Assembly: GCF_024502345.1 (NCBI RefSeq) | Contig: NZ_JALDNN010000001.1 | Length of the DNA stretch: 64,000 nt | Source: Escherichia coli | Lineage (GTDB): Bacteria > Pseudomonadota > Gammaproteobacteria > Enterobacterales > Enterobacteriaceae | Direction: 5' to 3' (one strand) | Shown: piece by piece, positions 1 to 15,407 of the stretch | Numbering within the stretch: position 1 is the stretch's first letter | How the letters are laid out: each line of letters starts with the position of its first letter | Position numbers and translations under genes: made by a program | The notes under the pieces: model-generated | The model's input: only the letters and a program-made list of their open reading frames with translations | What the model was told of the DNA's origin: nothing | Databases searched by the model: none

Positions 1-672
1 GACCGTTCCGTGGCAAAGCAAAAGTTCAAAATCACCAACTGGCCCACCTACAATAAAGCCCTCATCAACCGTGGCTCCATAACTTTCTGGCTGGATGATG
101 AAGCTATTCAGGCCTGGTATGAGTCAGCAACACCTTCTTCACGAGGCAGACCTCAGCGCTATTCTGACCTTGCCATCACGACTGTGCTGGTCATTAAACG
201 CGTATTCAGGCTGACCCTGCGCGCTGCGCAGGGCTTTATTGATTCCATTTTTTCTCTGATGAACGTTCCGCTACGCTGCCCGGATTACAGCTGTGTCAGC
301 AGGCGGGCAAAGTCGGTTAATGTCAGTTTCAAAACGCCCACCCGGGGTGAAATCGCACACCTGGTAATTGATTCCACCGGGCTGAAGGTCTTCGGTGAAG
401 GCGAGTGGAAAGTCAAAAAGCATGGCCAGGAACGCCGCCGTATCTGGCGTAAGCTGCATCTCGCCGTTGACAGTAAAACACATGAAATCATCTGCGCTGA
501 CCTGTCGCTGAACAACGTTACGGACTCAGAGGCCTTCCCCGGGTTAATCCGGCAAACCCACCGGAAAATCAGGTCAGCCGCCGCCGATGGCGCTTACGAT
601 ACCCGGCTATGTCACGATGAACTGCGGCGTAAGAAAATCAGCGCGCTTATCCCTCCCCGAAAAGGTGCGGGT
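1..672 (+). mobile_element. IS903-like (IS5 family) insertion sequence remnant; transposase N-terminal ~221 aa only, 3' part missing
   Basis: ORF 10..846 begins MAKQKFKITNWPTYNKALINRGS...RLCHDELRRKKISALIPPRKGAG, which I recognise as the IS903 transposase. The match ends near nt 672; downstream frame is read-through antisense to the GTPase gene. The element start lies at or beyond the window edge. Confidence 0.75.
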
Positions 673-1094
673 TGCATCACACCGTTCCAGAACTGCTCGT
701 CCACCGACAGCGCACGGTCATCAGCTTTGATGACCCACAGCACCAGGTCAAGCTCTGGCAGCATACGCCGGTACAGGGCGCGGTATTCATGGTCCCGTTG
801 TCCGTTCTCTCCCACGCCCGGTAAATCAACAATCACCAGACTGTGACGACCACTGCGCAGCCGGAAGCGCAGTATGTCGCGGGTGCAGGCGTTCACATCA
901 CTGACGGCGGAGACTTCCCCCCGAAAGAGTTCGTTACAGAGCGACGACTTACCGGCACCACTCTTGCCCATGATGCCAATCACCGGCTCGTAGTGGGTCA
1001 GATTCTGAATACGTTCAAGAATAAGCTGGCGAAGCGTATCGGGAAGCGACGCCAGCGGTTTTTCCAGGGCCTGAAGGCCATCAGTTTTATTCAT
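672..1094 (-). pseudogene. C-terminally truncated YfjP/YeeP-family GTPase
   Basis: ORF 612..1094 (-) has a P-loop GIMGKSGAGKSS and DLPGVGE motif typical of prophage YfjP/YkfA/YeeP GTPases. Only ~140 aa of an expected ~290 remain before the IS903 junction. Confidence 0.6.
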
Positions 1095-1726
1095 ACAGGG
1101 TTCTCAGCGTGAAAAACAAAAATCCCCGCGCTCCGGTCAGGGAGGCGGGGGATTCACGGAGATAATATCTATCTGAATTTATTTAGAATATAAGCAGGCT
1201 CATGTAACTGTAGCAGTGTCAACTTTACATCACAGCTCATGTTGGCTGGTGGTATTTTGCCAATAGTAGACATTTACGCCTAGGTTTAGATATCGAAATT
1301 AGTACACCAATATAGATACAGCAAAGAGGGAACTGATTTGTCTGCGCGAGACTAGAACCGTTGCCCCCTGTGGTTCGATGGATTGCAGGAAAATCATTTC
1401 CGGTGCTGAAGAGAGCCTCCGATACAACCTGAGAATATTTTAAGAACATCAAAATGAATGACGTAATTTACTCAAAGGCGATTGCCTAATATGTCATGAT
1501 ATTAGTAGCATTTAATTGCGTGAAAGTTTGTATATTCTTTTGAATTTATCTCAAAGCTAAAACCTCGTCAAAAATACACAAAAGGGTTTTGAGAAACAAG
1601 AGCCTGATGCTGAATCTGCTACAGAGCTGGGTTCTGTTCTGTTAAACTTGCGGTTAAAAATTTCCAAGAAAACCTAGGATATGACATGAGTTCACTGCAC
1701 ACCAGTAGTAGCAGCAGGGCGGTCAC

Positions 1727-4540
1727 ATGCCAATGGAGAGCTGTACGCAAATGAACGCCGTAGAAATTGAACAAGCCATCACGGATCTTGCAGAGCAACC
1801 CTTTGATCCTATAGAGTTTCCTTATGCTTTTCTTGAAGCCTTTGGTAACAAGGAAACGACTGTCAAACGCTTGCGCGCCGGTGCATCAAACAAATCCGAC
1901 TTGGGCGGTGTTCTCCAGAGCAATAATATTCACATTCTGACCTGCGAAGCAGGGACTGTGACTCAGATGTTGGCCGCGCTCAAGGCTAGCCCTGCGACAA
2001 CTAAAGCCAAGGCGAAGTTCATCCTGGCTACAGATGGCAAAGATTTCGAAGCTGAAGACCTCGTTAGCGGTCAGACTGTCGCTTGCGCCTTTAAAGACTT
2101 CCCAGATCACTTCGGCTTTTTCTTGCCATTAGCAGGCATTAGCACAGTTCGTCAGATTTGTGAGAACTCCTTTGACATTCGGGCCACTAGCCGGCTGAAT
2201 CGTCTGTATGTCGAGTTGTTGAAAGATAACCCTACCTGGGGGACGGCGGAGCGACGTCATGACATGAACAAATTCATGACTCGGCTGATCTTTTGTTTTT
2301 TCGCTGAGGATACTGACATTTTCGTGGGTAAGGGACGCTTTACTGAAACCGTTGCGCAGATGAGTACAAGAGATTCGTCGAATACGCATGAAGTTATCGC
2401 TACCTTGTTTCGTGCCATGAACACCAGTAACAAAGATAGAGCCGCCGCTGGCATCCCGCGCTGGGCCAATGAGTTTCCTTATGTCAACGGACGCTTGTTC
2501 TCTGGGAGTAATGATGTACCACTGTTCAGTAAGATTGCACGGTCTTATTTGCTCCATGTGGGTAGCCTTGACTGGACCAAGATTAATCCGGATATCTTTG
2601 GCTCGATGATTCAGGCAATTGCCGAAGACGAAGAACGCGGAGAGCTGGGGATGCATTACACCAGCGTACCCAACATCTTAAAAGTTTTGAATCCACTATT
2701 TCTGGACGACCTGCGCGCAAAGCTGGATGAGGCGGGTGACAATCCGCGTATGTTGCTTAACCTGCGTAAGCGCATTTCCCACATCCGTGTGTTCGACCCA
2801 GCGTGCGGTTCTGGTAACTTTTTGGTTATCGCGTACAAGGAAATGCGTGCCATTGAGGCCGAAATCAACAAGCGGCGTAATGAGCCAGATCGCGCCTCGG
2901 ATATCCCACTTACCAACTTTCGCGGGATTGAACTAAGAGATTTCCCGGCAGAGATCGCCCGCCTTGCGCTTGTTATCGCTGAGTACCAATGTGATGTACT
3001 GTACCGTGGGCTGCGGTTGGCCTTGGCTGAGCTTCTTCCGTTACGCAACGAAAATTGGATTACCTGTGGCAATGCACTACGGCTCGACTGGTTAAGAATT
3101 TGCCCGCCGACAGGAACAGGTGTGAAATTACATGGCGATGACTTGTTTGGATCTCCGCTTGATCAGGCAGAGATCGACTTTGAGAATGAAGGCGGAGAGA
3201 CATACATTTGCGGTAACCCACCATACCTTGGTTCAAAGTGGCAGACGGATGAACATAAAGCTGATCTTGGCACAATCTTTTCTGGTCGCGTGAAAAATTG
3301 GAAATCGCTCGATTATGTTGCTGGCTGGTTCCTGAAAGCCGCTGACTATGGTAGCCAGACAAGTTCCCAGGCTGCTTTTGTTGCCACTAATTCAATCAGC
3401 CAAGGGCAGCAAGTGTCGATTCTGTGGCCGGAAATATTCAAGGCAGGACAAGAGATTAGTTTCGCTTACACGAGCTTTAAGTGGTCGAACCTCGCTACTC
3501 ACAACGCCGGGGTCACAGTTGTTATCATCGGAATTTCTAACTGTGTAGGAAAGTCGCGACGCCTCTTTTCGGCTGGAGGAGACAATGGTGCGACGACGTG
3601 TCGTGAGGTGGAGCGCATCAACGCCTATTTGATCGCTGGCCCTAACATCATTGTGGAGGGGGACAGTTGTCCAGCCGACAGTCTTGCAACGATGCAGTTC
3701 GGTAACCACCCGTACTATGGTGCATCACTGATCTTTTCGAGATCTGAAGCACAGCAGATGATGTCTGTCGATCCGCGTACGGCGCGTTTTATTCGCCCAC
3801 TATATGGCTCCCAAGAGTTCATTTCCGCTGTGCCACGAGCCTGTCTATGGATTAACGACGATGAGGCTGACGAAGCGGGGACGATTCCTCTGATAGCTGA
3901 GCGTATGAGCGCCGTAGCAAGTGCTAGACGTGCAAAAAAACAAGACAAGGCAGCCCAGAAACTGGCTAAGACTCCATATCGCTTTCGCGACCAGCAGACA
4001 TCTACGAATCATATTCTTGTGGTTCCTCGAGTCAGTTCAGAGAACCGTCCTTGCTTGCCGGTTGGATTACTTGACTCTGACTCTATCGTTCAAGATCAAG
4101 CATTCGCCCTTTACGACGCTCCTCTCTGGAACCTCGCCATCATAGCGAGTCGCCTGCATCTAGTTTGGATCGCCACGGTTTGTGGAAAGTTAGAGACACG
4201 CTACCGCTATTCAAACACCCTCGGCTGGAATACTTTCCCGCTCCCAACACTCACTGAGAAAAATAAGGCAGACCTCACGCGCTGTGCAGAGGATATTCTT
4301 CTGACTAGGGAGCATCACTTCCCTGCAACCATTGCAGACCTTTATGACCCCGAGAAGATGCCAGACGACCTGCGTATTGTGCACGAGCGTAATGACGAAG
4401 TGCTTGAGCGTATTTACATTGGGCGCCGCTTTAAGAATGACACAGAGCGGCTTGAGAAGCTGTTTGACCTTTATACTAAGATGGCCGCTTCAACTGCATC
4501 GGGCAAAAGCAATAAACGTAAAGTGGGAACCAATGCATGA
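1727..4540 (+). CDS. MmeI-family (type IIG/IIL-like) N6-adenine DNA methyltransferase with target-recognition region; N-terminal nuclease motif apparently degenerate
   Basis: 937-aa ORF. SAM motif I FDPACGSGNFLV, catalytic motif IV GNPPY, and MmeI/PglX hallmarks FPYVNGRLF, HYTSVPNILKVLNPLFLDDL, FVATNSISQGQQVSILWP, RYRYSNTLGWNTFP, LYDPEKMP. Alternative start at 1751 (MNAVEIEQ). Confidence 0.85.
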   Translation: MPMESCTQMNAVEIEQAITDLAEQPFDPIEFPYAFLEAFGNKETTVKRLRAGASNKSDLGGVLQSNNIHILTCEAGTVTQMLAALKASPATTKAKAKFILATDGKDFEAEDLVSGQTVACAFKDFPDHFGFFLPLAGISTVRQICENSFDIRATSRLNRLYVELLKDNPTWGTAERRHDMNKFMTRLIFCFFAEDTDIFVGKGRFTETVAQMSTRDSSNTHEVIATLFRAMNTSNKDRAAAGIPRWANEFPYVNGRLFSGSNDVPLFSKIARSYLLHVGSLDWTKINPDIFGSMIQAIAEDEERGELGMHYTSVPNILKVLNPLFLDDLRAKLDEAGDNPRMLLNLRKRISHIRVFDPACGSGNFLVIAYKEMRAIEAEINKRRNEPDRASDIPLTNFRGIELRDFPAEIARLALVIAEYQCDVLYRGLRLALAELLPLRNENWITCGNALRLDWLRICPPTGTGVKLHGDDLFGSPLDQAEIDFENEGGETYICGNPPYLGSKWQTDEHKADLGTIFSGRVKNWKSLDYVAGWFLKAADYGSQTSSQAAFVATNSISQGQQVSILWPEIFKAGQEISFAYTSFKWSNLATHNAGVTVVIIGISNCVGKSRRLFSAGGDNGATTCREVERINAYLIAGPNIIVEGDSCPADSLATMQFGNHPYYGASLIFSRSEAQQMMSVDPRTARFIRPLYGSQEFISAVPRACLWINDDEADEAGTIPLIAERMSAVASARRAKKQDKAAQKLAKTPYRFRDQQTSTNHILVVPRVSSENRPCLPVGLLDSDSIVQDQAFALYDAPLWNLAIIASRLHLVWIATVCGKLETRYRYSNTLGWNTFPLPTLTEKNKADLTRCAEDILLTREHHFPATIADLYDPEKMPDDLRIVHERNDEVLERIYIGRRFKNDTERLEKLFDLYTKMAASTASGKSNKRKVGTNA

Positions 4541-6582
4541 GCAACAAGATTAGATCTGTACCGTCAGTTTCTGTTACCTACTCACGCAACGGAGCATCGA
4601 CCAAGGCTAATTCTCTTGGGATGCGTCCTATGCAAGAAAGGGCTTATGAGAAGCGCGGAGAACAATATCTTCTCATAAAGTCGCCGCCCGCCTCTGGCAA
4701 GAGTCGTGCGCTGATGTTCGTCGCACTCGATAAACTCGCAAACCAGGGGATCAAACAGGCAATCATTGTCGTGCCGGAAAAATCTATCGGCGCGAGCTTC
4801 AACGATGAACCGCTATCGCAGTTTGGATTCTGGGCTGATTGGCATGTTGAACCTAAGTGGAATCTGTGCAACGCCCCCGGTAACGACAACGGCGGCAAGG
4901 TAAAATCTTTCGGCTCTTTTCTTGAAAGTAGCGACAAGGTGCTTGTTTGTACACACGCAACCTTTCGCTTCGCGGTCGATGCCTACGGTGTAGAGGCGTT
5001 TGACGATCGCCTGATCGCCGTCGATGAATTTCACCATGTGTCCGCTAACCCGGATAACAAGCTTGGTCAGCATCTGGGACAGTTCATTGAGCGTGACAAG
5101 ACGCACATCGTGGCCATGACCGGCTCCTACTTCCGGGGAGATGCGGAAGCCGTTTTGGCTCCTCAGGATGAGTCTAGGTTCGATACCGTCACCTACACCT
5201 ACTACGAACAACTCAACGGTTACGAATACCTCAAACAGCTTGATATCGGATACTTCTTTTATAGTGGATCATACATTGATGACATCCTCAATGTCCTCGA
5301 TCCTGACAAGAAAACGATTATCCATATTCCCAACGTCAATTCGCGCGAGAGTACGAAGGATAAAATTAAGGAGGTGGAGCACATTCTGAGCGAGCTTGGC
5401 GATTGGCAAGGTGCGGATCCTACGACTGGTTTTCAGCTAGTCAAGCGCCCCGATGGCCATGTGTTGCGTATTGCTGACCTGGTGGACCCAGCCAGTCAAG
5501 GCAAGATTCAGGAAAGCCTCCGAGCTCCAGAAATGAAGACAGACCGTGACTATGTAGACATCATTATTGCACTTGGTATGGCGAAGGAAGGTTTCGACTG
5601 GATCTGGTGCGAACATGCGCTGACTGTTGGCTACCGTGCCAGCCTGACTGAGATCGTGCAGATTATCGGTCGCGCTACTCGCGACGCGCCGGGTAAAACC
5701 CGCGCGAGATTTACTAACTTGATCGCCGAGCCCGACGCTGTAGAGGGCGCAGTAACTGAGGCAGTCAACGATACCTTGAAAGCTATCGCGGCGAGCCTGT
5801 TGATGGAACAGGTACTGGCTCCGCGCTTCGAGTTCAAGCCCAAGAATCCTGAAATCGGTCCGACTCCAGGCTTTGATTATGGTGATGGAGGATATGACCC
5901 GGATAGCTGCAATTTTGGTGTTAATGAGCAGACAGGGACGTATCAAATCGAGATTAAGGGACTTGCCGAGCCTAGGAGCAAAGAGGCGGCACGTATCTGC
6001 CAGGAAGATTTAAACGAAGTGATCGCGGCCTTTGTGCAGGATAAGCCCGCCATCGAACGAGGCCTGTTCGATGAAGAGCTGATCCCTGAAGAGTTAACAC
6101 AGGTTCGTATGGGTAAGATCATCAAAGAAAAGTATCCTGAACTTGATGCTGAAGATCAGGAGGCTGTACGTCAGCATGCTATCGCCGCCCTTAACCTCAC
6201 GCAGCAGGCCAAGCGTCTTGCTACCGGTGAAAACGATGGGACGCTCAATACTGCTCTTATTGACGGAGTGCGTCGCTTTGCAATGGATGTGCGCGATTTA
6301 GACATAGACCTTATCGACCGCATCAATCCCTTTGGTGAAGCCTACGCTATCCTTGCTAAGACGATGAGTGAAGACAGTTTGAAGCAGGTCGCGGCGGCCA
6401 TCTCGGCCAAGCGTACTTCGATCACGCCTGAAGATGCCAAGGTGATCGCCAAGCGTGCCGCTGAATTCAAACGTGAACGTGGGCGCCTCCCATCGTTAAC
6501 TTCGCTGGATGCTTGGGAAAAACACCTTGCTGAAGGTGCAGCCGCGTTTATGCGTTTTAGGGCGGAGGGACGTTATGAGTAA
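4537..6582 (+). CDS. SF2 DExH-box helicase with ~280-aa C-terminal extension of unknown function
   Basis: 681-aa ORF. Walker A PPASGKS, motif II VDEFHH, motif III MTGSY, motif VI QIIGRATR. Start ATG overlaps the methyltransferase stop (ATGA at 4537-4540). Confidence 0.8.
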   Translation: MSNKIRSVPSVSVTYSRNGASTKANSLGMRPMQERAYEKRGEQYLLIKSPPASGKSRALMFVALDKLANQGIKQAIIVVPEKSIGASFNDEPLSQFGFWADWHVEPKWNLCNAPGNDNGGKVKSFGSFLESSDKVLVCTHATFRFAVDAYGVEAFDDRLIAVDEFHHVSANPDNKLGQHLGQFIERDKTHIVAMTGSYFRGDAEAVLAPQDESRFDTVTYTYYEQLNGYEYLKQLDIGYFFYSGSYIDDILNVLDPDKKTIIHIPNVNSRESTKDKIKEVEHILSELGDWQGADPTTGFQLVKRPDGHVLRIADLVDPASQGKIQESLRAPEMKTDRDYVDIIIALGMAKEGFDWIWCEHALTVGYRASLTEIVQIIGRATRDAPGKTRARFTNLIAEPDAVEGAVTEAVNDTLKAIAASLLMEQVLAPRFEFKPKNPEIGPTPGFDYGDGGYDPDSCNFGVNEQTGTYQIEIKGLAEPRSKEAARICQEDLNEVIAAFVQDKPAIERGLFDEELIPEELTQVRMGKIIKEKYPELDAEDQEAVRQHAIAALNLTQQAKRLATGENDGTLNTALIDGVRRFAMDVRDLDIDLIDRINPFGEAYAILAKTMSEDSLKQVAAAISAKRTSITPEDAKVIAKRAAEFKRERGRLPSLTSLDAWEKHLAEGAAAFMRFRAEGRYE

Positions 6583-7753
6583 TTCTGATTTAGACGATTT
6601 GGCGGCAGAACTTGCTGAATTTGCACCACCGGAGAAGAAAAAAGGACGTCCAGCCAGCGAGGAACGCATCATCGCAGGTTTTGAGGAAATCCAGCGCTTC
6701 GCTGACCAACATGGACGTGCGCCGCAACACGGCGAAGAGCGTGAGATCTTTGAGCGCCTCTATGCAGTGCGGCTCGACCGGCTACGCAGTCTCCCAGACT
6801 GCCGTGCCTTGCTAGAGCCGCTGGATCATCAAGGCTTATTGGCTGGAGGGGGTGATGTAGCGGAGTCAGCGGACGAAATTATCGATATCGATAATTTGGC
6901 TGCCGAACTGACGGATGTTTCCAGCGAGGATGATATCACAGTCTTGCGTCATGTTCGTGCTAGCGCCGAAAAGCGTGCTGTACAAGGGATCGCGGATCGC
7001 AAGCCGTGCGAGGATTTTGATACATTCAAACCGCTATTTGAACAGGTGCGCAGTGATCTAAGTTCAGGGTTAAGAGTGACCCGACCTTTTGGACAGTATG
7101 CAACGATTGAAGTGGGCCATTGGTTCATCCTGGATGGTCAAACGGCTTATGTGGCTGAGGAAGGTGAAGAGTTCGATTCTCCACAGGGGAAGAAAGATGC
7201 TCGGCTGCGTGTCATTTATTCGAATGGTACAGAAAGTAACCTGCTTCGGCTGTCATTAGTTCGTGCTTTGTATAAAGACGAAACAGCACGTCGAATTACC
7301 GATCCAGACATGGGGCCTTTATTCAGCGATGCTCTAGAAGAGAGCGATCTAGAAAGTGGCACCATTTATGTATTGCGTTCGCTATCAGATAACCCTTATG
7401 TGGCCGAACATCGTGATGTTATTCACAAGATTGGTGTGACTGGCGGCAAGGTCGAGACTCGTATTGCTAATGCTGAACACGATTCCACCTATCTGTTGGC
7501 GAAGGTAGAGGTGGTCGCTTCATACAAACTCGCAGGTATCAACCGCACCCGGATGGAAAACCTGTTTCACAGGTTGTTTGCACCCGCAAGGCTTAACATT
7601 ACCATTAACGACCGTTTCGGCCATCCAGTACAGCCCGAGGAATGGTTTCTCGTTCCGTTATTCGTTATCGATGAGGCTGTTGCACGTATTAAGGATGGTA
7701 GCATCATTGGGTATGTTTATGACCCCATGTCTGCGAAACTGGTGAAGGCATAG
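6575..7753 (+). CDS. T5orf172/MUG113 (GIY-YIG superfamily) domain protein, candidate nuclease, with acidic N-terminal domain of unknown function
   Basis: C-terminal GTIYVLRS...HKIGVTGGKVETRIANAEH...PEEWFLVPL fits the T5orf172 GIY-YIG-like pattern. GGAGGGA Shine-Dalgarno 6 nt upstream of ATG 6575; start overlaps the helicase stop (taa 6580-6582). The ORF track's upstream ATG at 6509 lacks an RBS. Confidence 0.65.
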   Translation: MSNSDLDDLAAELAEFAPPEKKKGRPASEERIIAGFEEIQRFADQHGRAPQHGEEREIFERLYAVRLDRLRSLPDCRALLEPLDHQGLLAGGGDVAESADEIIDIDNLAAELTDVSSEDDITVLRHVRASAEKRAVQGIADRKPCEDFDTFKPLFEQVRSDLSSGLRVTRPFGQYATIEVGHWFILDGQTAYVAEEGEEFDSPQGKKDARLRVIYSNGTESNLLRLSLVRALYKDETARRITDPDMGPLFSDALEESDLESGTIYVLRSLSDNPYVAEHRDVIHKIGVTGGKVETRIANAEHDSTYLLAKVEVVASYKLAGINRTRMENLFHRLFAPARLNITINDRFGHPVQPEEWFLVPLFVIDEAVARIKDGSIIGYVYDPMSAKLVKA

Positions 7754-7779
7754 TGAAGTGACACACTGAATTTGGCCAC

Positions 7780-7812
7780 CTGTTCTGAGGTGAGTATATC
7801 ACCTCAGAACAG
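7780..7812 (+). terminator. Perfect 14-bp-stem hairpin just downstream of the three-gene cassette; no U-tract
   Basis: ctgttctgaggtga / gtata / tcacctcagaacag read directly. Lack of a T-run makes intrinsic-terminator function uncertain; could be an RNA stability or protein-binding element. Confidence 0.3.
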
Positions 7813-7868
7813 CACAGGAATAAAAGATACTGATTTGAATGTACCTATACTTTGCGATGTGAGGATCA

Positions 7869-8660
7869 ATGAATAGTAACCTGACCAAGATATGTTACCG
7901 TGGTGAGACTGGTGAAAGTGATCTAAGAACGTTGATACTTGGTGAGATTCTATATATCTCACTACGAGATGTTTTAATCACGCTGAATAAAGAAAATAGA
8001 GAAATCAACGCTGATTACACAGTAAAATCGATGGCTGGAATAATCAGGGCGCAATTACAGGCTCTTGACCCTGATGAGTATATTACTACAGATGCTGAAA
8101 ATGGTGTTTTTGAAGGTCAGAAAGAGATCTTCGTCACCCAGCCAGGTTTGTATCGAGTCATGTCAAGTGACCGAAGCGCTGCCGGTAAGCGCTTTCAAAA
8201 ATGGTTATTTCATGAAGTCATACCATCATTGACTAAGCATGGTGTATACCCGCCTCCGCCAGAAGCGAAAGGTTCAGCCCTTGCACAAATGGCTGAGATA
8301 CTTGCTCAAAATTCGCGAGCACTTGCTGACGCAATCCATAAACACGAAAAACTGGCCGAAGATGTCTCACAGGTTAAAGGTAAAGTTGCCAACGTTGAAA
8401 GCCGTCTGGAACTGTTAGAATCAGGTCCTTCCACTGTAACTGAAGATATGCATACTCTTGATAGCCGTCTCGCTTATTTGGACATGAGCATGGAAGAAAA
8501 GCATACCACCGAGACATTAGCCTGGTGCGAGAATATTTCTGTTCAAAATAACAGGAAGGTGATTCGCAAGGACTGTAGGGAGAATTCGCTCTTTACAACG
8601 CAGACTATCGACGAAGCAATCGCTATCATGACTGAAAGTGGAAAAATCACACCAAATTGA
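7869..8660 (+). CDS. Bro-N (KilA-N/antirepressor-like) domain protein with coiled-coil C-terminus
   Basis: 263-aa ORF. N-terminal ...DLRTLILGEILYISLRDVLITL...GLYRVMSSDRSAAGKRFQKWLFHEVIPSLTKHGVY resembles the Bro-N fold pattern. GAGGAT RBS upstream. Confidence 0.55.
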   Translation: MNSNLTKICYRGETGESDLRTLILGEILYISLRDVLITLNKENREINADYTVKSMAGIIRAQLQALDPDEYITTDAENGVFEGQKEIFVTQPGLYRVMSSDRSAAGKRFQKWLFHEVIPSLTKHGVYPPPPEAKGSALAQMAEILAQNSRALADAIHKHEKLAEDVSQVKGKVANVESRLELLESGPSTVTEDMHTLDSRLAYLDMSMEEKHTTETLAWCENISVQNNRKVIRKDCRENSLFTTQTIDEAIAIMTESGKITPN

Positions 8661-8716
8661 AGATCCTGGGGTTCAGATTATCTGCTGGCTATCTTATTGA
8701 GCTCTGACGTAAAATA

Positions 8717-8739
8717 GGCCTTCCCACAAAGAGAAGGCC
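8717..8739 (-). terminator. Intrinsic terminator hairpin for the minus-strand YfjJ-like gene, between convergent genes
   Basis: ggccttc / 9-nt loop / gaaggcc, followed on the minus strand by tatttt. Confidence 0.45.
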
Positions 8740-8748
8740 ATTGCCGAC

Positions 8749-9375
8749 TTACAGATCGATTTGGCTACAGCCGAAGTTACGGTCTCCTTCACCAAACACT
8801 TTGCTTTCGACTTTGGTGAGGTAATCCAGTCGGGTTAACAGCGCTTGGTAGTTATGCTGGAAGTCAGCATTATTGGTATCCAGCACGTACTTACAGTTGT
8901 CAGGAAAATGGACCAGACCAGGGTGATCATCCAGTTTCAGTCCCAGGGCGCTGTACCACGCTCCCGTAATCATCCCTCTCAGGTTATCGTGCTGATCGTA
9001 ATCCCCGAGGTGGTAGTAAGCGTCTTTGTTGAACAACAGGCAAATGTGGTAGTGGCATTTACCTGACTCAGAATACTCTTTCGCCCATATAATAAATAAA
9101 GGGCAACGGTAGATGCGTTTACCTTCACGCTCCTTACGGGTACGGTCAGCCTCCAGTTTAGCTCTGAGGGAATCACGCATTCGGGATATCACCCCTGGTT
9201 CAAGATTAGGGAAACAGCAGATATTGTCTCCGTTATCGACTATCTTCGGATAATGCAGATCGACACGTACCGCCGTTAACCTGGGGTAACGGTTAGTCAA
9301 ATAACATAATAATTTTTTAATCTTGATCTGATATTCGAGGATATGTACTCCATGAGTACCTTGATATGTTTTCAT
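8749..9375 (-). CDS. YfjJ/YagK-family (inovirus Gp2-like) prophage protein
   Basis: 208-aa ORF resembling the YagK/YfjJ family of CP4-type islands; in the island-backbone position expected from K-12 CP4-57. Confidence 0.65.
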   Translation of the reverse strand: MKTYQGTHGVHILEYQIKIKKLLCYLTNRYPRLTAVRVDLHYPKIVDNGDNICCFPNLEPGVISRMRDSLRAKLEADRTRKEREGKRIYRCPLFIIWAKEYSESGKCHYHICLLFNKDAYYHLGDYDQHDNLRGMITGAWYSALGLKLDDHPGLVHFPDNCKYVLDTNNADFQHNYQALLTRLDYLTKVESKVFGEGDRNFGCSQIDL

Positions 9376-9397
9376 AATATATATCTGTATTTGGTCC

Positions 9398-9418
9398 TAC
9401 GGTCTATAGCAGACCGTA
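9398..9418. promoter_or_regulatory. Perfect palindrome TACGGTCT-ATAGC-AGACCGTA upstream of the YfjJ-like gene; candidate operator
   Basis: 8-bp arms with 5-bp spacer, ~25 bp upstream of the start codon at 9375. Confidence 0.35.
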
Positions 9419-9509
9419 CAGGGATGCCATACAGGCAGGGCTATTCCTGGTCACTGTTGTCGGTATATACTGGTATCAGATCTTAGTACGGATATACTGA
9501 TCTGATTAC

Positions 9510-9542
9510 TACTCTTACTGGTGAATACAGGTAGTAAGAGTA
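9510..9542. promoter_or_regulatory. 10-bp perfect inverted repeat TACTCTTACT-N13-AGTAAGAGTA; candidate protein-binding or recombination site
   Basis: Read directly; lies between the recombinase-like gene stop (9647) and the YfjJ-like gene. Confidence 0.3.
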
Positions 9543-9646
9543 CACAATGCCATTATATAATACCTATCCAACATCTAAATTTGAGACGAAGGTAGCCCCA
9601 GCCTGTGATGGCTGTTAAAAAGTTACTCTGCAATTAGCTTCTGGAA

Positions 9647-10216
9647 TTAACCGATGATTCCGTTATTCCAGTGCCGCTTCACAGTCGATAAACTGATACT
9701 CAATTTCTTTGCAATCTCAGCCTGAGTAAATCCACCTTTCTTAAGTATTGTGATATCACGTCGGTATTTGCTTCCCTCCTTTCGTCCTAATTTCTTCTTA
9801 ACATGTCGATATCGGCTTTTAGTTGATTTCAGATTGTGAATGTCAATCGTATCCTGACGAGCAATCAAAAAAGACAAGCAACTTTCAGCAGAAGGCTCTA
9901 TCCTTGAAGCTGGATGGTAGCTGTAGATAAAAATTTCTTTTTGAAGGCAAAAAAATAAAATATTCTGTAAGTCCTCCACAGTTCTGCCAAGACAGCTTAG
10001 ATCTGGAATGACAAGCGTGTCCTGCCGGTTCATTTCATGATGAATCAATTGTCTGAGTAAACGTTGCTCTGAAACAACCTCTTTAATATCTACCTGCTCG
10101 ATCACAACATGTTCAGGTAGAATATTAAATTTTTGGCATATCTCAGCAAGTGAGTGATGATCTGTAATGCTTTCTTGCTGTTCGCTACTGCATATGGTGT
10201 AAAAAAATGAACGCAT
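9647..10216 (-). CDS. Serine-recombinase (resolvase/invertase)-like protein with C-terminal HTH, conserved residues partly substituted
   Basis: N-terminus MRSFFYTICSSEQQ matches the resolvase catalytic-serine region and DTLVIPDLSCLGRT the second conserved block; C-terminal GGFTQAEIAKKLSISLSTVKRHW is a Hin-like HTH. The ORF track extends to 10345; start chosen at the internal Met. Confidence 0.55.
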   Translation of the reverse strand: MRSFFYTICSSEQQESITDHHSLAEICQKFNILPEHVVIEQVDIKEVVSEQRLLRQLIHHEMNRQDTLVIPDLSCLGRTVEDLQNILFFCLQKEIFIYSYHPASRIEPSAESCLSFLIARQDTIDIHNLKSTKSRYRHVKKKLGRKEGSKYRRDITILKKGGFTQAEIAKKLSISLSTVKRHWNNGIIG

Positions 10217-10371
10217 CTGATGCACTCCGGTGTCATAAATTATTCTTTGATACCTGAACAATGTCATTTTGTATAAAAAATAACCAAAAATAGAGCGTGA
10301 TTGCCAGCGATACTTTGAGTGGTAAAGTAGTATTTTACCTCTCATAATTGTTTGTCCTTCTTTGTTACCTC

Positions 10372-11085
10372 TTAGGTTCTGCTCTCCTGTGAGTATGGGT
10401 TTATAATGATGTCATCCGGTGCATTAACACGGTTGGAAACATTTGTTTTACGGATCACTGGCAGCATAACCACCATCTCATTGACATGGTAAATATCAAT
10501 CCAACAAACAACCGGATAAGGCATAACAATCCCCTTTCTTCTAAGAACTTCATTTATCCCGAATATAATTAATTGGGATGTTGACAAGAGTAGAGTCTGC
10601 CCGACATCAAAGTAATAATCCTCAAAGGTTGTTCTATGAATAAGAATAATGTTTGAATATCCCAAGACACTTTGATGCTTTACATTAAAATGTCGTTGAT
10701 TGTAAATGTAAATGGCTTTTTCCATATCGTAATTTTCCCTCAGCGAGGATAGCCTTTCACGTATAACTGTTTTTTCATCTTTCCCCATGAATTCATCATT
10801 AGCGTTCAGTTTAAAGTAATCTGTAATTGGGATTTTTAATGGACTCATGATGTTCGTTTTCCAGATTAACGAACAGTATTCTTCCAGAGTCACTTCTTTT
10901 TCACCTCGATTTCGAATAATTCTTTCATTTATAGTGAATCTTAGTAGATCGTTTTTTAGCTCCTTTATTAGCCATTGATAGCGAAGACATTGCTCGAATA
11001 TATGTACCGTCAACGCCACAGAGTCTGATATGACTGAGGAAAGAGATTTATTATTCATCCTGGCATAATGCTCAAGAGTTTCCAT
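10372..11085 (-). CDS. Hypothetical protein, AT-rich orphan island gene
   Basis: 237-aa ORF with no recognisable motif; low GC relative to surroundings. Confidence 0.45.
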   Translation of the reverse strand: METLEHYARMNNKSLSSVISDSVALTVHIFEQCLRYQWLIKELKNDLLRFTINERIIRNRGEKEVTLEEYCSLIWKTNIMSPLKIPITDYFKLNANDEFMGKDEKTVIRERLSSLRENYDMEKAIYIYNQRHFNVKHQSVLGYSNIILIHRTTFEDYYFDVGQTLLLSTSQLIIFGINEVLRRKGIVMPYPVVCWIDIYHVNEMVVMLPVIRKTNVSNRVNAPDDIIINPYSQESRT

Positions 11086-11245
11086 CTCAGATTCATTTTT
11101 GTGCGTAAAAGTGTATTTTTTATTGGAAATGTTTTTTACTCCTTATAATTAACATTGCTATTAATTAATCCTGTTTGTAAAGGAGAAGTTTATTAATAAG
11201 TAAAAGTCCGCCTGCATCAAGACACGATGAAAATGTCTTCCTTTC

Positions 11246-11458
11246 TTACTCTATTGCCCGGGTTCGTTGTAAAATCCATTCGTCTATTTCAGCCTCTATC
11301 CAGCCGACAGATTGCAGCCCCAGACGACGTTGTTTCGGGAACGTTGGGTCATAGCGTGGCGATTTCGGATTGATCCAGTCATAGATTGTTGAACGTGACA
11401 AGCCCGTTTTGTCAATTACTGTAGAAAGACGAAGTATTTTAACATTAGATTTGTTCAT
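11246..11458 (-). CDS. alpA: AlpA-family prophage transcriptional regulator (excision activator)
   Basis: 70-aa ORF MNKSNVKILRLSTVIDKTGLSRSTIYDWINPKSPRYDPTFPKQRRLGLQSVGWIEAEIDEWI matches AlpA. Confidence 0.85.
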   Translation of the reverse strand: MNKSNVKILRLSTVIDKTGLSRSTIYDWINPKSPRYDPTFPKQRRLGLQSVGWIEAEIDEWILQRTRAIE

Positions 11459-11879
11459 AGCTGATTACCTCAAATCGAAGTGCTCTGGATGATGTGAGAT
11501 TAGCTTTAAGGCAGCCAATCTAAAATGTATGTGCCAAAAAAACTTTTTTTTACGAACGGGAAATAAATATCCTATTGAAATTTAATGATTTTATTTTTTT
11601 TCTGTCGGGTCCATCAGAACGGTGTGAATTCAGTTACAGCCTTCCGGTCCGGTAATGGGCCAGTTATATGTTGAGTGGCTGCGCTTCGATGACTTCTGTT
11701 TCAGTGGGCTGGTCTATCTCCGACGTGCTGTGGCAGGTAGCGGTTCAGCAGTAGCCATTATTCGTTCTGCTCCGTCAGTACCGCACCCAGCAGCCGCAAG
11801 ATGCTCTCTTCATTGGGAAGATACCTACCACTGTCAACGCCAAGATTGTTGGCCGTTTCGTCCGCATCCCCTATTGGTC

Positions 11880-12570
11880 ATTAATGTTGTCCGCTTTCCG
11901 CCGTTTCATCTCTTTGTTCAGGCGCTCCAGCGTGTTTGTGGAGTGGGTTTTTCACTTGGTGTGCTTTCGGGAGGCCGAAGGACGCCAGCACGTCTGCCTC
12001 TGCTTCGTCCATCACCCCGGTGACCGCCGGGTTGCTTTTCTCCCATTGACCGGCAACCTTGCACAGGTGGCATGGGCGCTTTTCTCGTCGGTCTGCACGA
12101 ACACCTGTTGCAGCGCCGCACGGACCACCGACTGGTTTGCACGGCTGACGCGGCTCAGCACGTTGCGCATGAAGTGGACCCGGCAGCGCTGCCAGCTGGC
12201 GGAGAACATCTGCCTATCGCCGCCTTCAGGCTCAGCAGGAAGGTCAGCCAGGATGCCGTTTATCCATGCTTCCTGGATAACCGCGTTGAGCGCCTTCTCA
12301 GACAATCTGTGGGCCTCCAGGAAGGGCGGGAAGTACGTCCCTTTAAGCAGCTTCGGAATACGCAGGTCCACAGCGTGCCGAGCTGGCGGGGACTGACGGT
12401 CACGATAGCCGTTGTGGTAGGTTTCGCGCTCATCGCTGCGCTAGTGGGCTCCGCGTTGATGTGCTGAGTGACATCTGCTTCCATAATGCAGTTGAGCATA
12501 AATTCGGTGAGTTCACGCAGAAAATCCTCGCCGCCGAGTAGCATCAGGGTGTTGCTGAATGTCATGCTGT
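11880..12570 (-). pseudogene. IS256-family (Mutator-type) transposase remnant, frameshifted with internal deletion
   Basis: Minus-strand fragments: 12260..12565 (MTFSNTLMLLGGEDFLRELTEFMLNCIMEADVTQ, typical N-terminus) and 12012..12371 (...QRCRVHFMRNVLSRV motif) in different frames; the DDE core between them is absent. Confidence 0.55.
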
Positions 12571-12784: not shown

Positions 12785-13558
12785 ATGATATGGAATATGC
12801 TTGATATTTTTTGCTCGGAATTTGAAGAAAAAAGAAACAAATTAAAGACCTACCTTGAAAGCTCGGGATTTCTTTATAGGCATTCTATCATCAAAAAAAT
12901 GTCTCTTTTGGATGGTATGGATGAAAGCCAGAATTTTGAGTTGTTGCAGGCGAAACAATATAATCGTGATGATATACAATGCTGGGAGTATATTAGCTCT
13001 AAGTGGACCGTCGTTCCTATTATGATGGGTTCGCAAAGCCTTAAACACTTTTTTACATGGAATTTTAAGGCCGCTGGGATATTTCAGCGATATGGAAAGG
13101 ATATGTGGGATATCAACAAGATAATTGCAGTTAAATCTTTATTGTTTGCTAGTTCAGTCTTAGGTAGTTGCCTTGGGGTTGCAGGCTATGGCCCGTTGCT
13201 GCCTTCGGAGCTTGCATTAGACAAAAAGAAGCTAACTAAGAAAAAACAGTCAGCAAGAATGGGAGGGATATCTAAGGCTGAATTATATCTCCCGATAAAA
13301 GAAGAGACGATAAGATTGCTCCACCAAAATGTTCCTGTGGATGGTAGATGGAAAAATAAAACGGTTGCAGCAAAGGCAATAGAGGCAGATTTAGTCATCT
13401 TTGTACAAAATTTGAAATCTCAAAACCAAAATCTGGATCTTAATGAAGAAGATATTATTACAGTCGTCAAACGTTGGGAACGCAATGATGAAAGAGTAAA
13501 GGCTGCATTTGAGGGAACGGTGAAGCAAAAAATCTCTGGCAAGAAGGGCTCGGGTTAG
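12785..13558 (+). CDS. Hypothetical AT-rich, lysine-rich protein with one predicted hydrophobic segment
   Basis: 257-aa ORF; hydrophobic stretch IIAVKSLLFASSVLGSCLGVAGYGPLL. No recognisable domain. Confidence 0.45.
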   Translation: MIWNMLDIFCSEFEEKRNKLKTYLESSGFLYRHSIIKKMSLLDGMDESQNFELLQAKQYNRDDIQCWEYISSKWTVVPIMMGSQSLKHFFTWNFKAAGIFQRYGKDMWDINKIIAVKSLLFASSVLGSCLGVAGYGPLLPSELALDKKKLTKKKQSARMGGISKAELYLPIKEETIRLLHQNVPVDGRWKNKTVAAKAIEADLVIFVQNLKSQNQNLDLNEEDIITVVKRWERNDERVKAAFEGTVKQKISGKKGSG

Positions 13559-13609: not shown

Positions 13610-13620
13610 ATTAAGTAGAA

Positions 13621-14862
13621 TCAAACAACAAGTTTTAATGCACCGGCACTAGATTCTACCATGCTTCCTTTATCTGCTCTTTTAACAAAATCAGCCCACC
13701 ATTGCATCATCGGCCTACGTTGCTCAAGATAATCACTGCGGTTATAAGCGCGACGTACCTCATTTTTGTCTACATGAGCAAGTGCGGCTTCAATGACATC
13801 AGGAGGAAATCCTTGCTCATTGAGGGCTGTACTGGCGATAGAACGCAAACCATGTGAAACCAGCACTCCCCCTAAACCGGCACGCTTGAGTGCAGCATTC
13901 ACGGTTTGACTGTTCATCGGCTGAGTGGGCTTAATGCGGCTTGGAAAAATAAAATCTCGGCCACCACTGAGCGGCTTCATCATTTCCAGAATAGCCAGAG
14001 CCCCATCAGATAATGGAACGGTATGGTCCCGGTTCATTTTCATTCGGGCTGCTGGAATTTTCCATTCGTTAGCATCAAAATCGATCTCATTCCACCGAGC
14101 TTCTGCGGCTTCTGCGGGGCGGGTGATGGTGAGAAGTTGCCACATGAACAGACACCGCGTAGACAGGCTGATACTGGCCGTACGCATAGTTTGCATCAAC
14201 TGAGGCAACTGATCCGGACGAATACTGGGCATGTTCTTTTTCTGAGGTTTCTCGAAGGCTTTGCCAATATTAACACTGGGAACTGCATCAATCAGGCCCG
14301 TGTTTTGGGCATAAATCATGACTTCATTGATCCGTTGGCAAAGACGGCGGACAGTTTCCAGTGCTCCTCGGGCCTGAACGGGTTGAACGGCTTGAACCAG
14401 TGTATGGGCTTTAATATCTGTAACGCTTACGTTGCCAATTGCGGGAAATATATCTCTTTCAAGCGAACGCCAGATATCATCAGCATAGTCCTCGGTTACA
14501 CTGGCTTTCTTCACATTCCACCAACGCTCGGCAACTAACAAGAAAGTGTTGGTTTTGGCCTCCTGAGAATTTCTTATCTGTTCTTTTTGGTATTCCTGAG
14601 GATCGATTCCTTTTGCCAGTAATACTTTGGATTCAGCTCTGAGCTTACGAGCATCGGAAAGCGAGACAGCAGGATAGGAACCGAAGCTCTGTTTAGTTCG
14701 CTGTTTTGTCAGAGGTCGGTAATAACGGAATTGCCAGAGCTTACTGCCACTGGATTTGATTAGCAGCGTCAGTCCGTCACCATCATACAACTGATAATCG
14801 GCATCTTTAGATTTGGCTGCTTTGATTTCCGTATCCGTTAACGGCTTGGTTTTTCTTGCCAC
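13621..14862 (-). CDS. intA: P4-type tyrosine integrase of a CP4-57-like island (GTG start)
   Basis: 413-aa ORF beginning (M)ARKTKPLTDTEIKAAKSKDADYQLYDGDGLTLLIKSSGSKLWQFRYY, immediately downstream of ssrA on the same strand. Confidence 0.9.
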   Translation of the reverse strand: MARKTKPLTDTEIKAAKSKDADYQLYDGDGLTLLIKSSGSKLWQFRYYRPLTKQRTKQSFGSYPAVSLSDARKLRAESKVLLAKGIDPQEYQKEQIRNSQEAKTNTFLLVAERWWNVKKASVTEDYADDIWRSLERDIFPAIGNVSVTDIKAHTLVQAVQPVQARGALETVRRLCQRINEVMIYAQNTGLIDAVPSVNIGKAFEKPQKKNMPSIRPDQLPQLMQTMRTASISLSTRCLFMWQLLTITRPAEAAEARWNEIDFDANEWKIPAARMKMNRDHTVPLSDGALAILEMMKPLSGGRDFIFPSRIKPTQPMNSQTVNAALKRAGLGGVLVSHGLRSIASTALNEQGFPPDVIEAALAHVDKNEVRRAYNRSDYLEQRRPMMQWWADFVKRADKGSMVESSAGALKLVV

Positions 14863-15044: not shown

Positions 15045-15407
15045 TGGTGGAGCTGGCGGGAGTTGAACCCGCGTCCGAAATTCCTACATCCTCGGTACTA
15101 CATGCTTAGTCAGTCTTTACATTCGCTTGCCAGCTGCGGACGGACACGCCACTAACAAACTAGCCTGATTAAGTTTTAACGCTTCAACCCCAGGCAGGGC
15201 TTCCACGCGATCTCTTTTGGGTTTGACCTCTCTTGATCCCCGTCCTAAGAGCGGAGGCTAGGGAGAGAGGGCTCTAAGCAGGTTATTAAGCTGCTAAAGC
15301 GTAGTTTTCGTCGTTTGCGACTATTTTTTGCGGCTTTTTACGAGGCCAACCGCCCCTCGGCATGCACCTTGGGTTTCGCAAATCCCGTCGAATCCAGAAT
15401 CAGCCCC
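15045..15407 (-). ncRNA. ssrA: tmRNA (SsrA); its 3' end is the island integration site
   Basis: Reverse complement reads GGGGCTGATTCTGGATTCGACGGG...GGGTTCAACTCCCGCCAGCTCCACCA, with the tag-coding region and tRNA-like ends. Confidence 0.95.

What the first reader, a model, noticed from the sequence alone, without database searches (positions are those of the whole stretch)
1727..11085. Compositional discontinuity between the cassette and neighbouring island genes
By eye, the three cassette genes are GC-balanced and resemble the core genome, whereas the Bro-N gene, the recombinase-like gene and the 237-aa orphan are markedly AT-rich. This suggests the island is a mosaic assembled from at least two sources, with the cassette acquired as a unit.
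Basis: seen in the sequence. Interest (0 to 1): 0.3.

Follow-up and report, generated by a model that had tools for sequence, protein, structure and literature searches.

The report
GC step at island module boundaries
The GC jump is real and marks the joins between swappable modules of a well-known kind of E. coli genomic island, where a widely travelled three-gene methylase-helicase-nuclease operon sits beside the island's AT-rich housekeeping genes; this is ordinary island mosaicism.

Summary
The three cassette genes are 50.0-51.6% GC, like the window (49.9%). Bro-N is 42.8%, the 232-aa gene 37.6% and the 237-aa gene 36.0%; no core window of equal length is that low.

The region is the integrase-proximal part of a CP4-57-type island at ssrA. 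The AT-rich genes are homologues of K-12 yagK, yagL and yagM, plus alpA and intA. They are not orphans.

The cassette fills the island's variable cargo slot. It is a YeeA(DnmA)/YeeB/YeeC-type operon: an MmeI-like methyltransferase without the PD-ExK nuclease, a DEAD helicase and a T5orf172/GIY-YIG protein. Sister islands hold a type III restriction-modification system there, and K-12 holds AbpAB and RnlAB.

A 66-nt IS911-like end stub sits exactly at the GC step. Bro-N is a separate small module.

The island is a mosaic, and the cassette travels as a conserved operon across Beta- and Gammaproteobacteria. But it resembles the core in %GC only. Its codon usage, dinucleotide and tetranucleotide signatures and CTAG content are clearly foreign. 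The mosaic also predates this strain. This is known biology of low interest.

The parts
1..669 (+). Truncated IS903-like insertion sequence. Its ORF 10-846 runs out of the IS into flanking DNA.
   Evidence: Pfam DDE_Tnp_1_5 1.2e-39 and DDE_Tnp_1 5.5e-23. Homology to related islands starts at 670.
670..1184 (-). Left backbone of the island: the 5' fragment of the YfjP-like GTPase gene (ORF 612-1094) plus its upstream region. GC is 55%.
   Evidence: 95.7-99.2% identical to the GTPase gene region of islands L001, L002 and L016. NCBIfam GTPase hits. GC 0.553.
1185..1726 (+). AT-rich (39.9%) non-coding leader of the cargo slot. The stretch 1425-1726 travels with the cassette.
   Evidence: No homology to NH-21 beyond 1184. 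1425-1726 is about 80% identical upstream of the cassette in L001, L005, L006, L016 and L019. An IS66 remnant replaces 1291-1424 in relatives. Three CTAG sites.
1727..4540 (+). MmeI-like N6-adenine DNA methyltransferase with target-recognition domain (YeeA/DnmA type). It has no PD-ExK nuclease motif.
   Evidence: Five MmeI Pfam domains. PADLOC REase_MTase_IIG 3.9e-284. phmmer to MmeI 5HR4 gives 4.4e-138, but the alignment starts at residue 96. The N-terminal 172 aa alone find nothing in PDB. Read directly from the translation: no ExK in the first 110 residues, and NPPY and DPACGSGNF motifs present.
4537..6582 (+). DEAD/DEAH-box superfamily-2 helicase (YeeB type). Its start overlaps the upstream stop (ATGA).
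   Evidence: Pfam DEAD 4.1e-06 and ResIII 1.6e-05. The overlap is seen. 91-97% amino-acid identity in many Enterobacterales and in Alcaligenaceae.
6575..7753 (+). T5orf172/MUG113 (GIY-YIG superfamily) protein, YeeC type. Its start overlaps the helicase gene by 8 nt. The longest ORF starts at 6509.
   Evidence: Pfam MUG113 3.2e-13 and T5orf172 4.2e-11. RefSeq homologues are 392 aa 'GIY-YIG nuclease family protein'. ATG at 6575.
7755..7820 (+). 66-nt left-end (terminal inverted repeat plus leader) stub of an IS911-like IS3-family element. This is the physical scar at the GC step.
   Evidence: Aligns to the IS911 left end. The full IS continues in strain KCJ3K291. The same stub is present in ECC-1470. 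About 80 nt match 2,375 plasmid records.
7821..8711 (+). Bro-N module (gene 7869-8660, 42.8% GC). It is a separate small module at the right edge of the cargo slot.
   Evidence: Pfam Bro-N 2.9e-07. Found without the cassette: alone (L008), after a type III restriction-modification system (L009), and after DprA-type genes beside a YagK remnant (L010). Absent from NH-21. The C-terminal half is only 85% identical between otherwise 97-99% identical islands.
8712..11085 (-). AT-rich integrase-proximal backbone: yagK/yfjJ-like (8749-9375), yagL-like degenerate serine recombinase/HTH (9647-10345) and yagM-like (10372-11085). A terminator-like hairpin lies at 8717-8739.
   Evidence: Pfam YagK_YfjJ_C 1.1e-65; weak Resolvase/HTH hits. 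Present in 376 of 5,426 genomes, at 93.9% identity to K-12 yagKLM. Backbone homology to NH-21 starts at 8712. Hairpin. No CTAG sites.
11246..11458 (-). alpA-like regulator gene.
   Evidence: Pfam Phage_AlpA 1.4e-21.
11655..12565 (-). IS256-family transposase remnant. It forms a 57-58% GC patch inside the AT-rich arm.
   Evidence: Pfam Transposase_mut 3.5e-17. Annotated as a frameshifted IS256 transposase in L001. GC 0.573.
12785..13558 (+). Conserved hypothetical island gene, 38% GC.
   Evidence: No family hits. Conserved next to intA in L001, L002 and L004.
13621..14862 (-). P4-type tyrosine integrase intA.
   Evidence: Pfam Phage_integrase 3.7e-37, Arm-DNA-bind_3 and Phage_int_M. Annotated intA in relatives.
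15045..15407 (-). ssrA (tmRNA), the integration target of the island.
   Evidence: ARAGORN. Rfam tmRNA 295.8 bits.

Best explanation
The GC step is the compositional footprint of module boundaries in a CP4-57-type island integrated at ssrA. In window order the layout is:
- truncated IS903
- fragment of the GC-rich distal arm (YfjP-like GTPase)
- cargo slot 1185-8711
- AT-rich integrase-proximal arm (yagK, yagL, yagM, alpA, an IS256 remnant, a hypothetical gene, intA)
- ssrA

The slot carries a YeeA(DnmA)/YeeB/YeeC-type operon. This is an MmeI-like methyltransferase lacking its own nuclease, a DEAD helicase and a T5orf172/GIY-YIG protein, and it is presumed to be a restriction-modification-like defence module. 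The slot also holds a 66-nt IS911-like end stub and a small Bro-N module.

Each module keeps the composition of its own history. The operon is a broad-host-range cargo of about 50% GC with a non-enterobacterial oligonucleotide signature. The integrase arm is a long-standing enterobacterial island backbone that is AT-rich yet avoids CTAG as E. coli does.

Shown here: the GC, codon and k-mer differences, the exact homology breakpoints, the alternative occupants of the slot, and the IS scar.

Inferred: cargo is swapped by homologous recombination in the conserved flanks plus IS-mediated rearrangement; the operon is an active defence system; the AT-rich arm is the sort of DNA that H-NS silences.
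For: Composition:
- GC statistics are, and segmentation.

Breakpoints:
- Against NH-21, homology covers 670-1184 (95.7%) and 8712-16000 (99.0%), with nothing in between. NH-21 and a mussel isolate carry type III Mod and Res genes there.
- K-12 CP4-57 has abpBA, yfjM and rnlAB between yfjJ and yfjP. It shows the same GC layout: integrase arm 40.7%, slot 46.9%, yfjP-yfjR 54-57%.

Cassette mobility:
- The cassette is in 98 of 5,426 E. coli genomes, against 376 for yagKLM.
- The cassette also occurs in a CP4-6/intF island, on Klebsiella conjugative plasmids, in a Dickeya T4SS island and in an Alcaligenes ICE.
- The helicase is 91-97% identical at the amino-acid level across these hosts.

Junction and identity:
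- The IS911-like stub starts 1 nt after the T5orf172 stop codon.
- Bro-N occurs independently of the cassette.
- The cassette matches the second group of MmeI homologues of Morgan et al. 2009: no PD-ExK, flanked by a helicase and a GIY-YIG gene (PMC2731913; checked here).
Against: - Composition cannot by itself prove separate donors.
- By GC, dinucleotide distance (134 vs 78) and codon bias (0.380 vs 0.252), the AT-rich block is further from the core than the cassette. Only the tetranucleotide correlation and CTAG rank the cassette as more foreign, so 'which is more foreign' depends on the metric.
- The core reference is only 42.9 kb of neighbouring DNA, not the whole genome.
- The cassette is not a perfectly coherent unit. 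Between E. coli variants the methyltransferase N-terminal part is 76-78% identical, its target-recognition region cannot be aligned, and helicase/T5orf172 are 91-97% identical.
- The GC decline begins inside the 3' end of the T5orf172 gene (about 7010-7640), not exactly at the IS stub.
- The B. subtilis homologue of the operon showed no restriction or anti-phage activity (PMC9973331).
Confidence: 0.85

Rival explanations
1. One reading: the cassette is compositionally native-like (core-like or fully ameliorated), and only the AT-rich genes are foreign imports.
For: Cassette GC is 50.5% against 50.6% for the core (z = -0.1). Per-gene codon bias of the three genes falls within the spread of single core genes.
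Against: - The cassette is present in only 98 of 5,426 E. coli genomes.
- Pooled codon bias is 0.252, against 0.130 +/- 0.021 (max 0.210) for core sets.
- Tetranucleotide correlation to core is 0.16, against a baseline of 0.66-0.79. Each of the three genes is individually below the minimum for core segments of similar length.
- There are 12 CTAG sites where 1.5 are expected at the core rate (P = 9e-08).
- Near-identical proteins occur in Betaproteobacteria.
Confidence: 0.05
2. Single-piece acquisition with no local assembly: this strain received the whole island already mosaic. The GC heterogeneity is then an inherited property of the element, possibly maintained by selection (an AT-rich regulatory arm kept silent, cargo kept expressible), and not a record of separate acquisitions in this genome.
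For: - The same cassette/IS-stub/Bro-N/yagKLM arrangement is found at ssrA in strain 2013C-4282, at 97.7% over 1425-11831.
- It is also found in a CP4-6/intF island in ECC-1470.
- K-12 CP4-57 shows the same three-tier GC layout with different cargo.
Against: This does not conflict with modular origin; it only moves the assembly back in time. Different cargo in otherwise 99% identical backbones shows that exchange is ongoing within E. coli. No expression or H-NS data were available to test the selective part.
Confidence: 0.45
3. The GC difference reflects protein-level constraints (amino-acid composition of small regulatory proteins versus large enzymes), not different histories.
For: GC1 and GC2 are also lower in YagL and YagM (0.42-0.43 and 0.29-0.33) than in the cassette genes.
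Against: The gap is as large at synonymous third positions (0.365-0.379 vs 0.47-0.55, z about -4 against core genes). It extends into non-coding DNA (11086-11654 is 37.3%). The modules are demonstrably separable in other genomes.
Confidence: 0.03

Closest known systems
Cryptic prophage-like island CP4-57 of E. coli K-12 (ssrA-integrated), and its relative CP4-6
   Same: - Integration next to ssrA with a P4-type integrase intA.
- alpA, a YfjJ/YagK-family gene and a YfjP-like GTPase bracket a variable slot.
- yagK-yagL-yagM are 93.9% identical to K-12 CP4-6.
- The same three-tier GC layout is seen.
   Different: - The slot holds a YeeABC-type operon plus Bro-N, not abpBA, yfjM and rnlAB.
- The integrase arm carries yagL and yagM (CP4-6-type) in place of yfjI.
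- The distal arm is cut away by an IS903-like fragment.
- An IS256 remnant is inserted.
YeeA(DnmA)-YeeB-YeeC cluster: the second group of MmeI homologues (Morgan et al. 2009, PMC2731913; Fernandez et al. 2023, PMC9973331)
   Same: - MmeI-like methyltransferase and target-recognition region without the PD-ExK motif.
- Followed by a DEAD helicase and a GIY-YIG/T5orf172 protein in the same order and orientation.
- Located in a horizontally acquired region.
   Different: - This is the proteobacterial version, whereas YeeABC was described in Bacillus.
- Activity is untested here. The B. subtilis cluster was inactive as a restriction or anti-phage system, while a Vibrio crassostreae version was reported to protect against some phages (as cited in PMC9973331).
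- PADLOC labels the methyltransferase 'type IIG REase-MTase', which overstates it.
Defence-carrying mobile elements at the E. coli tmRNA hotspot (hotspot #9 of Hochhauser et al. 2023, PMC10121019)
   Same: A defence-type cargo carried by an integrative element at the tmRNA gene.
   Different: In the passages I read, that study catalogues elements per chromosomal hotspot. It does not describe the internal yfjJ/yagK-GTPase slot or its composition.

Membership tests
CP4-57-type ssrA island | Integrated at the 3' end of ssrA, beside a P4-type tyrosine integrase | tested here: met
   tmRNA at 15045-15407(-) and intA at 13621-14862(-). The order is the same as in K-12.
CP4-57-type ssrA island | Backbone genes alpA, a YfjJ/YagK-family gene and a YfjP-like GTPase flanking a variable region | tested here: met
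   AlpA 1.4e-21. YagK_YfjJ_C 1.1e-65. GTPase fragment at 670-1094.
CP4-57-type ssrA island | Distal arm (DUF932, antirestriction, RadC, CbtA/CbeA-type toxin-antitoxin) and a second att repeat of the ssrA 3' end | tested here: inconclusive
   No repeat of the ssrA 3' end was found in the window. The distal arm lies beyond the IS903 truncation at the window edge. It is present in relatives L001 and L003.
YeeA/YeeB/YeeC (DnmA) group of MmeI homologues | Similarity to MmeI across the helicase-spacer, methyltransferase, target-recognition and C-terminal domains | tested here: met
   Pfam MmeI_hel, MmeI_Mtase, MmeI_TRD and MmeI_C. phmmer to 5HR4 gives 4.4e-138 over residues 96-935.
YeeA/YeeB/YeeC (DnmA) group of MmeI homologues | No PD-ExK endonuclease motif; the first ~100 residues differ from MmeI | tested here: met
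   The alignment to MmeI begins at residue 96, past MmeI D70/E80/K82. The N-terminal 172 aa alone give no PDB hit at E <= 10. No ExK in residues 1-110 (read). Caveat: Pfam MmeI_N still matches residues 9-167 (2e-33), so the domain fold is probably retained.
YeeA/YeeB/YeeC (DnmA) group of MmeI homologues | Immediately followed by a DEAD-type helicase gene and a GIY-YIG/T5orf172 gene | tested here: met
   (overlapping frames). Synteny is conserved, and with an extra 306-aa gene between methyltransferase and helicase.
YeeA/YeeB/YeeC (DnmA) group of MmeI homologues | Single-strand m6A methylation of an asymmetric site; restriction dependent on the helicase and nuclease partners | not testable with these tools
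   This needs a methylome and genetics.
Stand-alone type IIG/IIL MmeI-family restriction-modification enzyme | N-terminal PD-ExK catalytic residues aligned with MmeI D70, E80 and K82 | tested here: not met
   plus direct reading of the sequence. The protein should not be filed as a self-sufficient type IIG enzyme, despite the PADLOC label.

The most novel reading that the evidence does not exclude
The stretch between the YfjJ/YagK-family gene and the YfjP-like GTPase gene of CP4-57/CP4-6-type islands may be a dedicated, recombination-serviced defence-cargo slot, comparable to the hotspots of P2/P4 elements. Occupants seen here are the YeeABC-type operon, type III restriction-modification systems, and AbpAB with RnlAB. 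The three-tier composition (AT-rich integrase arm, about 50% GC cargo, GC-rich distal arm) would then be functional: the mobility and regulatory arm stays H-NS-silenced while the cargo escapes silencing. I found no description of this slot in the searched literature, but that search is far from exhaustive.
Probability: 0.35. Interest if true: 0.35.

Novelty: already known. Interest (0 to 1): 0.15.

Why it matters
It matters little beyond correct annotation. Compositional mosaicism of integrase-associated islands is textbook, and both the island type and the operon type are described.

Three points are useful:
- %GC alone was misleading here. The GC-balanced cassette lies outside the core range on every GC-independent measure, and by tetranucleotide signature and CTAG it is further from the core than the AT-rich backbone.
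- The 'orphan' and 'recombinase-like' genes are yagM and yagL homologues.
- The methyltransferase is not a self-sufficient type IIG enzyme. It belongs to the poorly understood helicase- and GIY-YIG-dependent group, whose mechanism remains experimentally open.

Tried and rejected
- **Shared signature among the cassette genes.** I tested whether the three genes share a tetranucleotide signature that would show common origin. Pairwise correlations of 0.05-0.20 are below even random core-segment pairs, so this is uninformative at these lengths.
- **Second ssrA att repeat.** I looked for one to delimit the island and found none in the window.
- **IS66 flanks.** I checked whether 1185-1726 is IS66-derived, which would suggest a composite-transposon origin. 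It matches only cassette-upstream DNA. IS66 is an insertion in relatives at 1290/1425 and is not present here.
- **The junction at 7819/7820.** I checked whether it is a shared IS boundary in the Bro-N-only locus L008. It is not.
- **Structured RNAs and signals.** Rfam found only tmRNA in 1-20000. The promoter and terminator scan was at background level, apart from the yagK hairpin.
- **Family names.** NCBIfam gave no names for the helicase, T5orf172, Bro-N, YagK, YagM or the 257-aa protein.
- **H-NS literature.** A search for direct H-NS binding data on yagL/yagM gave only indirect RNA-polymerase-distribution data, so H-NS silencing remains an inference.
Full report
**What the region is.** The window is E. 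coli chromosome. ARAGORN and Rfam find ssrA (tmRNA) at 15045-15407 on the minus strand. A P4-type tyrosine integrase gene lies next to it at 13621-14862. Everything to the left of ssrA is therefore an ssrA-integrated island of the CP4-57 type.

The genes inside the finding's coordinates are as follows:

| Coordinates | Strand | Identity |
|---|---|---|
| 1727-4540 | + | MmeI-like methyltransferase |
| 4537-6582 | + | DEAD/DEAH helicase |
| 6575-7753 | + | T5orf172/MUG113 (GIY-YIG superfamily) protein |
| 7869-8660 | + | Bro-N protein |
| 8749-9375 | - | YagK/YfjJ-family protein |
| 9647-10345 | - | 232-aa degenerate resolvase/HTH protein (yagL) |
| 10372-11085 | - | 237-aa protein (yagM) |

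The last three genes are 93.9% identical at the DNA level to yagK-yagL-yagM of K-12 prophage CP4-6. The 'recombinase-like gene' and the 'orphan' of the finding are thus well-known, if uncharacterised, island genes. An alpA gene (11246-11458), an IS256-family remnant (11655-12565) and a conserved hypothetical gene (12785-13558) complete the integrase arm.

**Checking the observation.** The three cassette genes have 50.0, 51.6 and 50.0% GC. Bro-N has 42.8%, yagK 45.5%, yagL 37.6% and yagM 36.0%. The window has 49.9%.

As a reference I used the 42.9 kb of core chromosome to the right of ssrA, leaving out the rRNA operon. Against it:
- The 6-kb cassette sits at z = -0.1.
- The 3.9-kb block 7754-11654 (40.1% GC) sits at z = -6.5, lower than every core window of that length.
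- Cassette versus block gives chi-square p = 2.6e-24.

The gap is as large at third codon positions: 0.47-0.55 against 0.365-0.379, with 36 core ORFs at 0.542 +/- 0.040. It also extends into non-coding DNA. Amino-acid content therefore does not explain it.

Entropy segmentation finds breakpoints near 7010-7640, 9290, 11600, 12470 and 13690. The profile is stepped: 50.7%, 45.6%, 36.6%, then 58.2% (the IS256 remnant), 39.1% and back to 49.3%.

**Does the cassette 'resemble the core genome'?** Only in %GC.

| Measure | Cassette | Core baseline |
|---|---|---|
| Pooled codon bias to core | 0.252 | 0.130 +/- 0.021 (max 0.210) |
| Dinucleotide distance | 78 | 35 +/- 12 (max 64) |
| Tetranucleotide z-score correlation | 0.163 | 0.72 +/- 0.03 (range 0.66-0.79) |

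Each of the three genes is individually below the minimum of core segments of similar length.

CTAG is the clearest marker. E. coli strongly avoids it: 11 sites in 42.9 kb, observed/expected 0.07. It occurs 12 times in the cassette (P = 9e-08 at the core rate) and 3 more times in the cassette's leader. It does not occur at all in 7821-11654. CAAG/CTTG is also threefold enriched in the cassette.

The AT-rich block is itself atypical. Its dinucleotide distance is 134 and its codon bias 0.380. Its tetranucleotide correlation (0.52 against 0.65 +/- 0.05) is much closer to the core than the cassette's. Both parts are foreign, and which is 'more foreign' depends on the metric. The GC-balanced cassette is certainly not core-like.

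**Where the module boundaries lie.** Comparison with other E. coli genomes gives exact junctions.

Strain NH-21 and a mussel isolate have the same island at ssrA. Homology to the window runs over 670-1184 (95.7%) and 8712-16000 (99.0%). In between, they carry type III Mod and Res genes and lack the window's 1185-8711. The right junction lies just outside a terminator-like hairpin (8717-8739) downstream of yagK.

K-12's own CP4-57 has abpB-abpA, yfjM and rnlA-rnlB in the same position, between yfjJ and the GTPase gene yfjP. It shows the same compositional layout: integrase arm 40.7%, slot 46.9%, yfjP-yfjR 54-57%. In relatives that keep the distal arm, that arm is 54.5-55.7% GC. The GC step in the window is thus a family trait of these islands. 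They have an AT-rich integrase arm, a GC-rich distal arm and a variable cargo slot between them.

**The scar at the GC step.** One nucleotide after the T5orf172 stop codon, 7755-7820 is the left terminal repeat and leader of an IS911-like element. In strain KCJ3K291 the cassette is 100% identical and the IS continues into its transposase gene. In the window only 66 nt remain, fused to the 48 nt upstream of Bro-N.

**Bro-N is its own module.** Homologues of 7820/7851-8661 occur without the cassette in three settings: alone, after a type III restriction-modification system, and after DprA-type genes beside a yagK remnant. NH-21 lacks it. Most cassette-bearing genomes retain only its first ~100-200 nt before another IS.

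Further insertion-sequence material adds to the mosaic. There is a truncated IS903-like copy at 1-669 that has removed the island's distal arm from view, and there is the IS256 remnant.

**Was the cassette acquired as a unit?** Synteny says yes; composition says nothing either way. The evidence for a unit is:
- The three reading frames overlap (ATGA, and 8 nt).
- The same order occurs in 87 E. coli genomes at 80% or more coverage, out of 98 with any match among 5,426.
- It occurs in a CP4-6/intF island, on Klebsiella conjugative plasmids and next to a type IV secretion island in Dickeya.
- It occurs in an Alcaligenes faecalis ICE, where an extra 306-aa gene is present.
- The helicase is 91-97% identical in protein sequence across these hosts.
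- The cassette's GC is 50-51% in Enterobacterales and 55.7% in Alcaligenes.

The unit is not monolithic. Between E. coli variants the methyltransferase N-terminal half is 76-78% identical, its target-recognition region (about 3540-4100) does not align, and helicase and T5orf172 are 91-97% identical. This is the pattern expected of specificity swapping.

The whole cassette/IS-stub/Bro-N/yagKLM block is shared with strain 2013C-4282 at ssrA and with ECC-1470 in a CP4-6 island. The mosaic was therefore assembled before it reached this strain.

**What the cassette is.** PADLOC calls the first protein a type IIG restriction enzyme-methyltransferase. However, its alignment to MmeI (PDB 5HR4) starts only at residue 96, beyond MmeI's catalytic D70/E80/K82. 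The N-terminal 172 residues alone match nothing in the PDB. There is no ExK in the first 110 residues.

This matches the second group of MmeI homologues described by Morgan et al. (PMC2731913). That group lacks the nuclease motif and is always followed by a DEAD helicase (YeeB-like) and a GIY-YIG protein (YeeC-like). The authors speculated that it acts like a type I-style system with single-strand methylation.

The B. subtilis version (DnmA-YeeB-YeeC) methylates DNA but showed no restriction or anti-phage activity. A Vibrio crassostreae version was reported to protect against some phages (PMC9973331). Function in E. coli is untested.

**Verdict.**
- Mosaic: yes, with at least five compositional or historical components.
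- Cassette as a transferable unit: yes, by synteny and distribution.
- 'Core-like': no.

The tmRNA locus is a published hotspot for defence-carrying mobile elements in E. coli (PMC10121019). The finding is ordinary island modularity. The only mildly new angle is that the yfjJ/yagK-GTPase interval looks like a dedicated cargo slot with a conserved compositional layout. I could not find this described in the library searched, and I did not survey it systematically.

Noticed in passing
window 1-1094: A truncated IS903-like element (1-669) abuts a 5' fragment of the island's YfjP-like GTPase gene (670-1094, minus strand). The GC-rich distal arm seen in relatives (WYL, DUF905/932, antirestriction, RadC, CbtA/CbeA) is missing from the window. 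It has either been deleted or lies displaced beyond the window edge.
   Followed up: partly
window 7755-7820: A 66-nt stub of the left end of an IS911-like (IS3-family) element starts one base after the T5orf172 stop codon. The complete IS is present at this spot in strain KCJ3K291. The same stub is present in ECC-1470.
   Followed up: yes
window 11655-12565: A 57-58% GC patch inside the AT-rich arm is an IS256-family (Transposase_mut) remnant. It is more degraded than the frameshifted copy in strain 2013C-4282.
   Followed up: yes
window 3540-4100: The target-recognition part of the MmeI-like gene cannot be aligned between E. coli variants of the cassette. The N-terminal half is only 76-78% identical, while the downstream genes are 91-97% identical. 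This suggests repeated swapping of methylation specificity.
   Followed up: partly
window 8225-8624: The C-terminal half of Bro-N is only about 85% identical between islands that are otherwise 96-100% identical on both sides. This looks like a small recombination patch inside the gene.
   Followed up: no
L011 9084-10004 (Alcaligenes faecalis ICE): The betaproteobacterial version of the cassette carries an extra 306-aa gene with no Pfam hit between methyltransferase and helicase, and a 353-aa gene after the T5orf172 gene.
   Followed up: no
L016 13401-19786: In one enterobacterial island the cassette is followed by a 1,650-aa NERD/kinase/UvrD-like helicase protein and a 478-aa protein. This may be a second defence-type cargo in the same slot.
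   Followed up: no
L007 5022-7441 (E. coli S115): In this urinary isolate an mcr-1.32/PAP2 colistin-resistance unit, flanked by IS fragments, sits immediately upstream of the cassette in the same island slot.
   Followed up: no
window 28001-30000 and 32001-35000: Core-side GC dips to 45-47%, and whole-window segmentation places a breakpoint at 35170. These were not examined.
   Followed up: no
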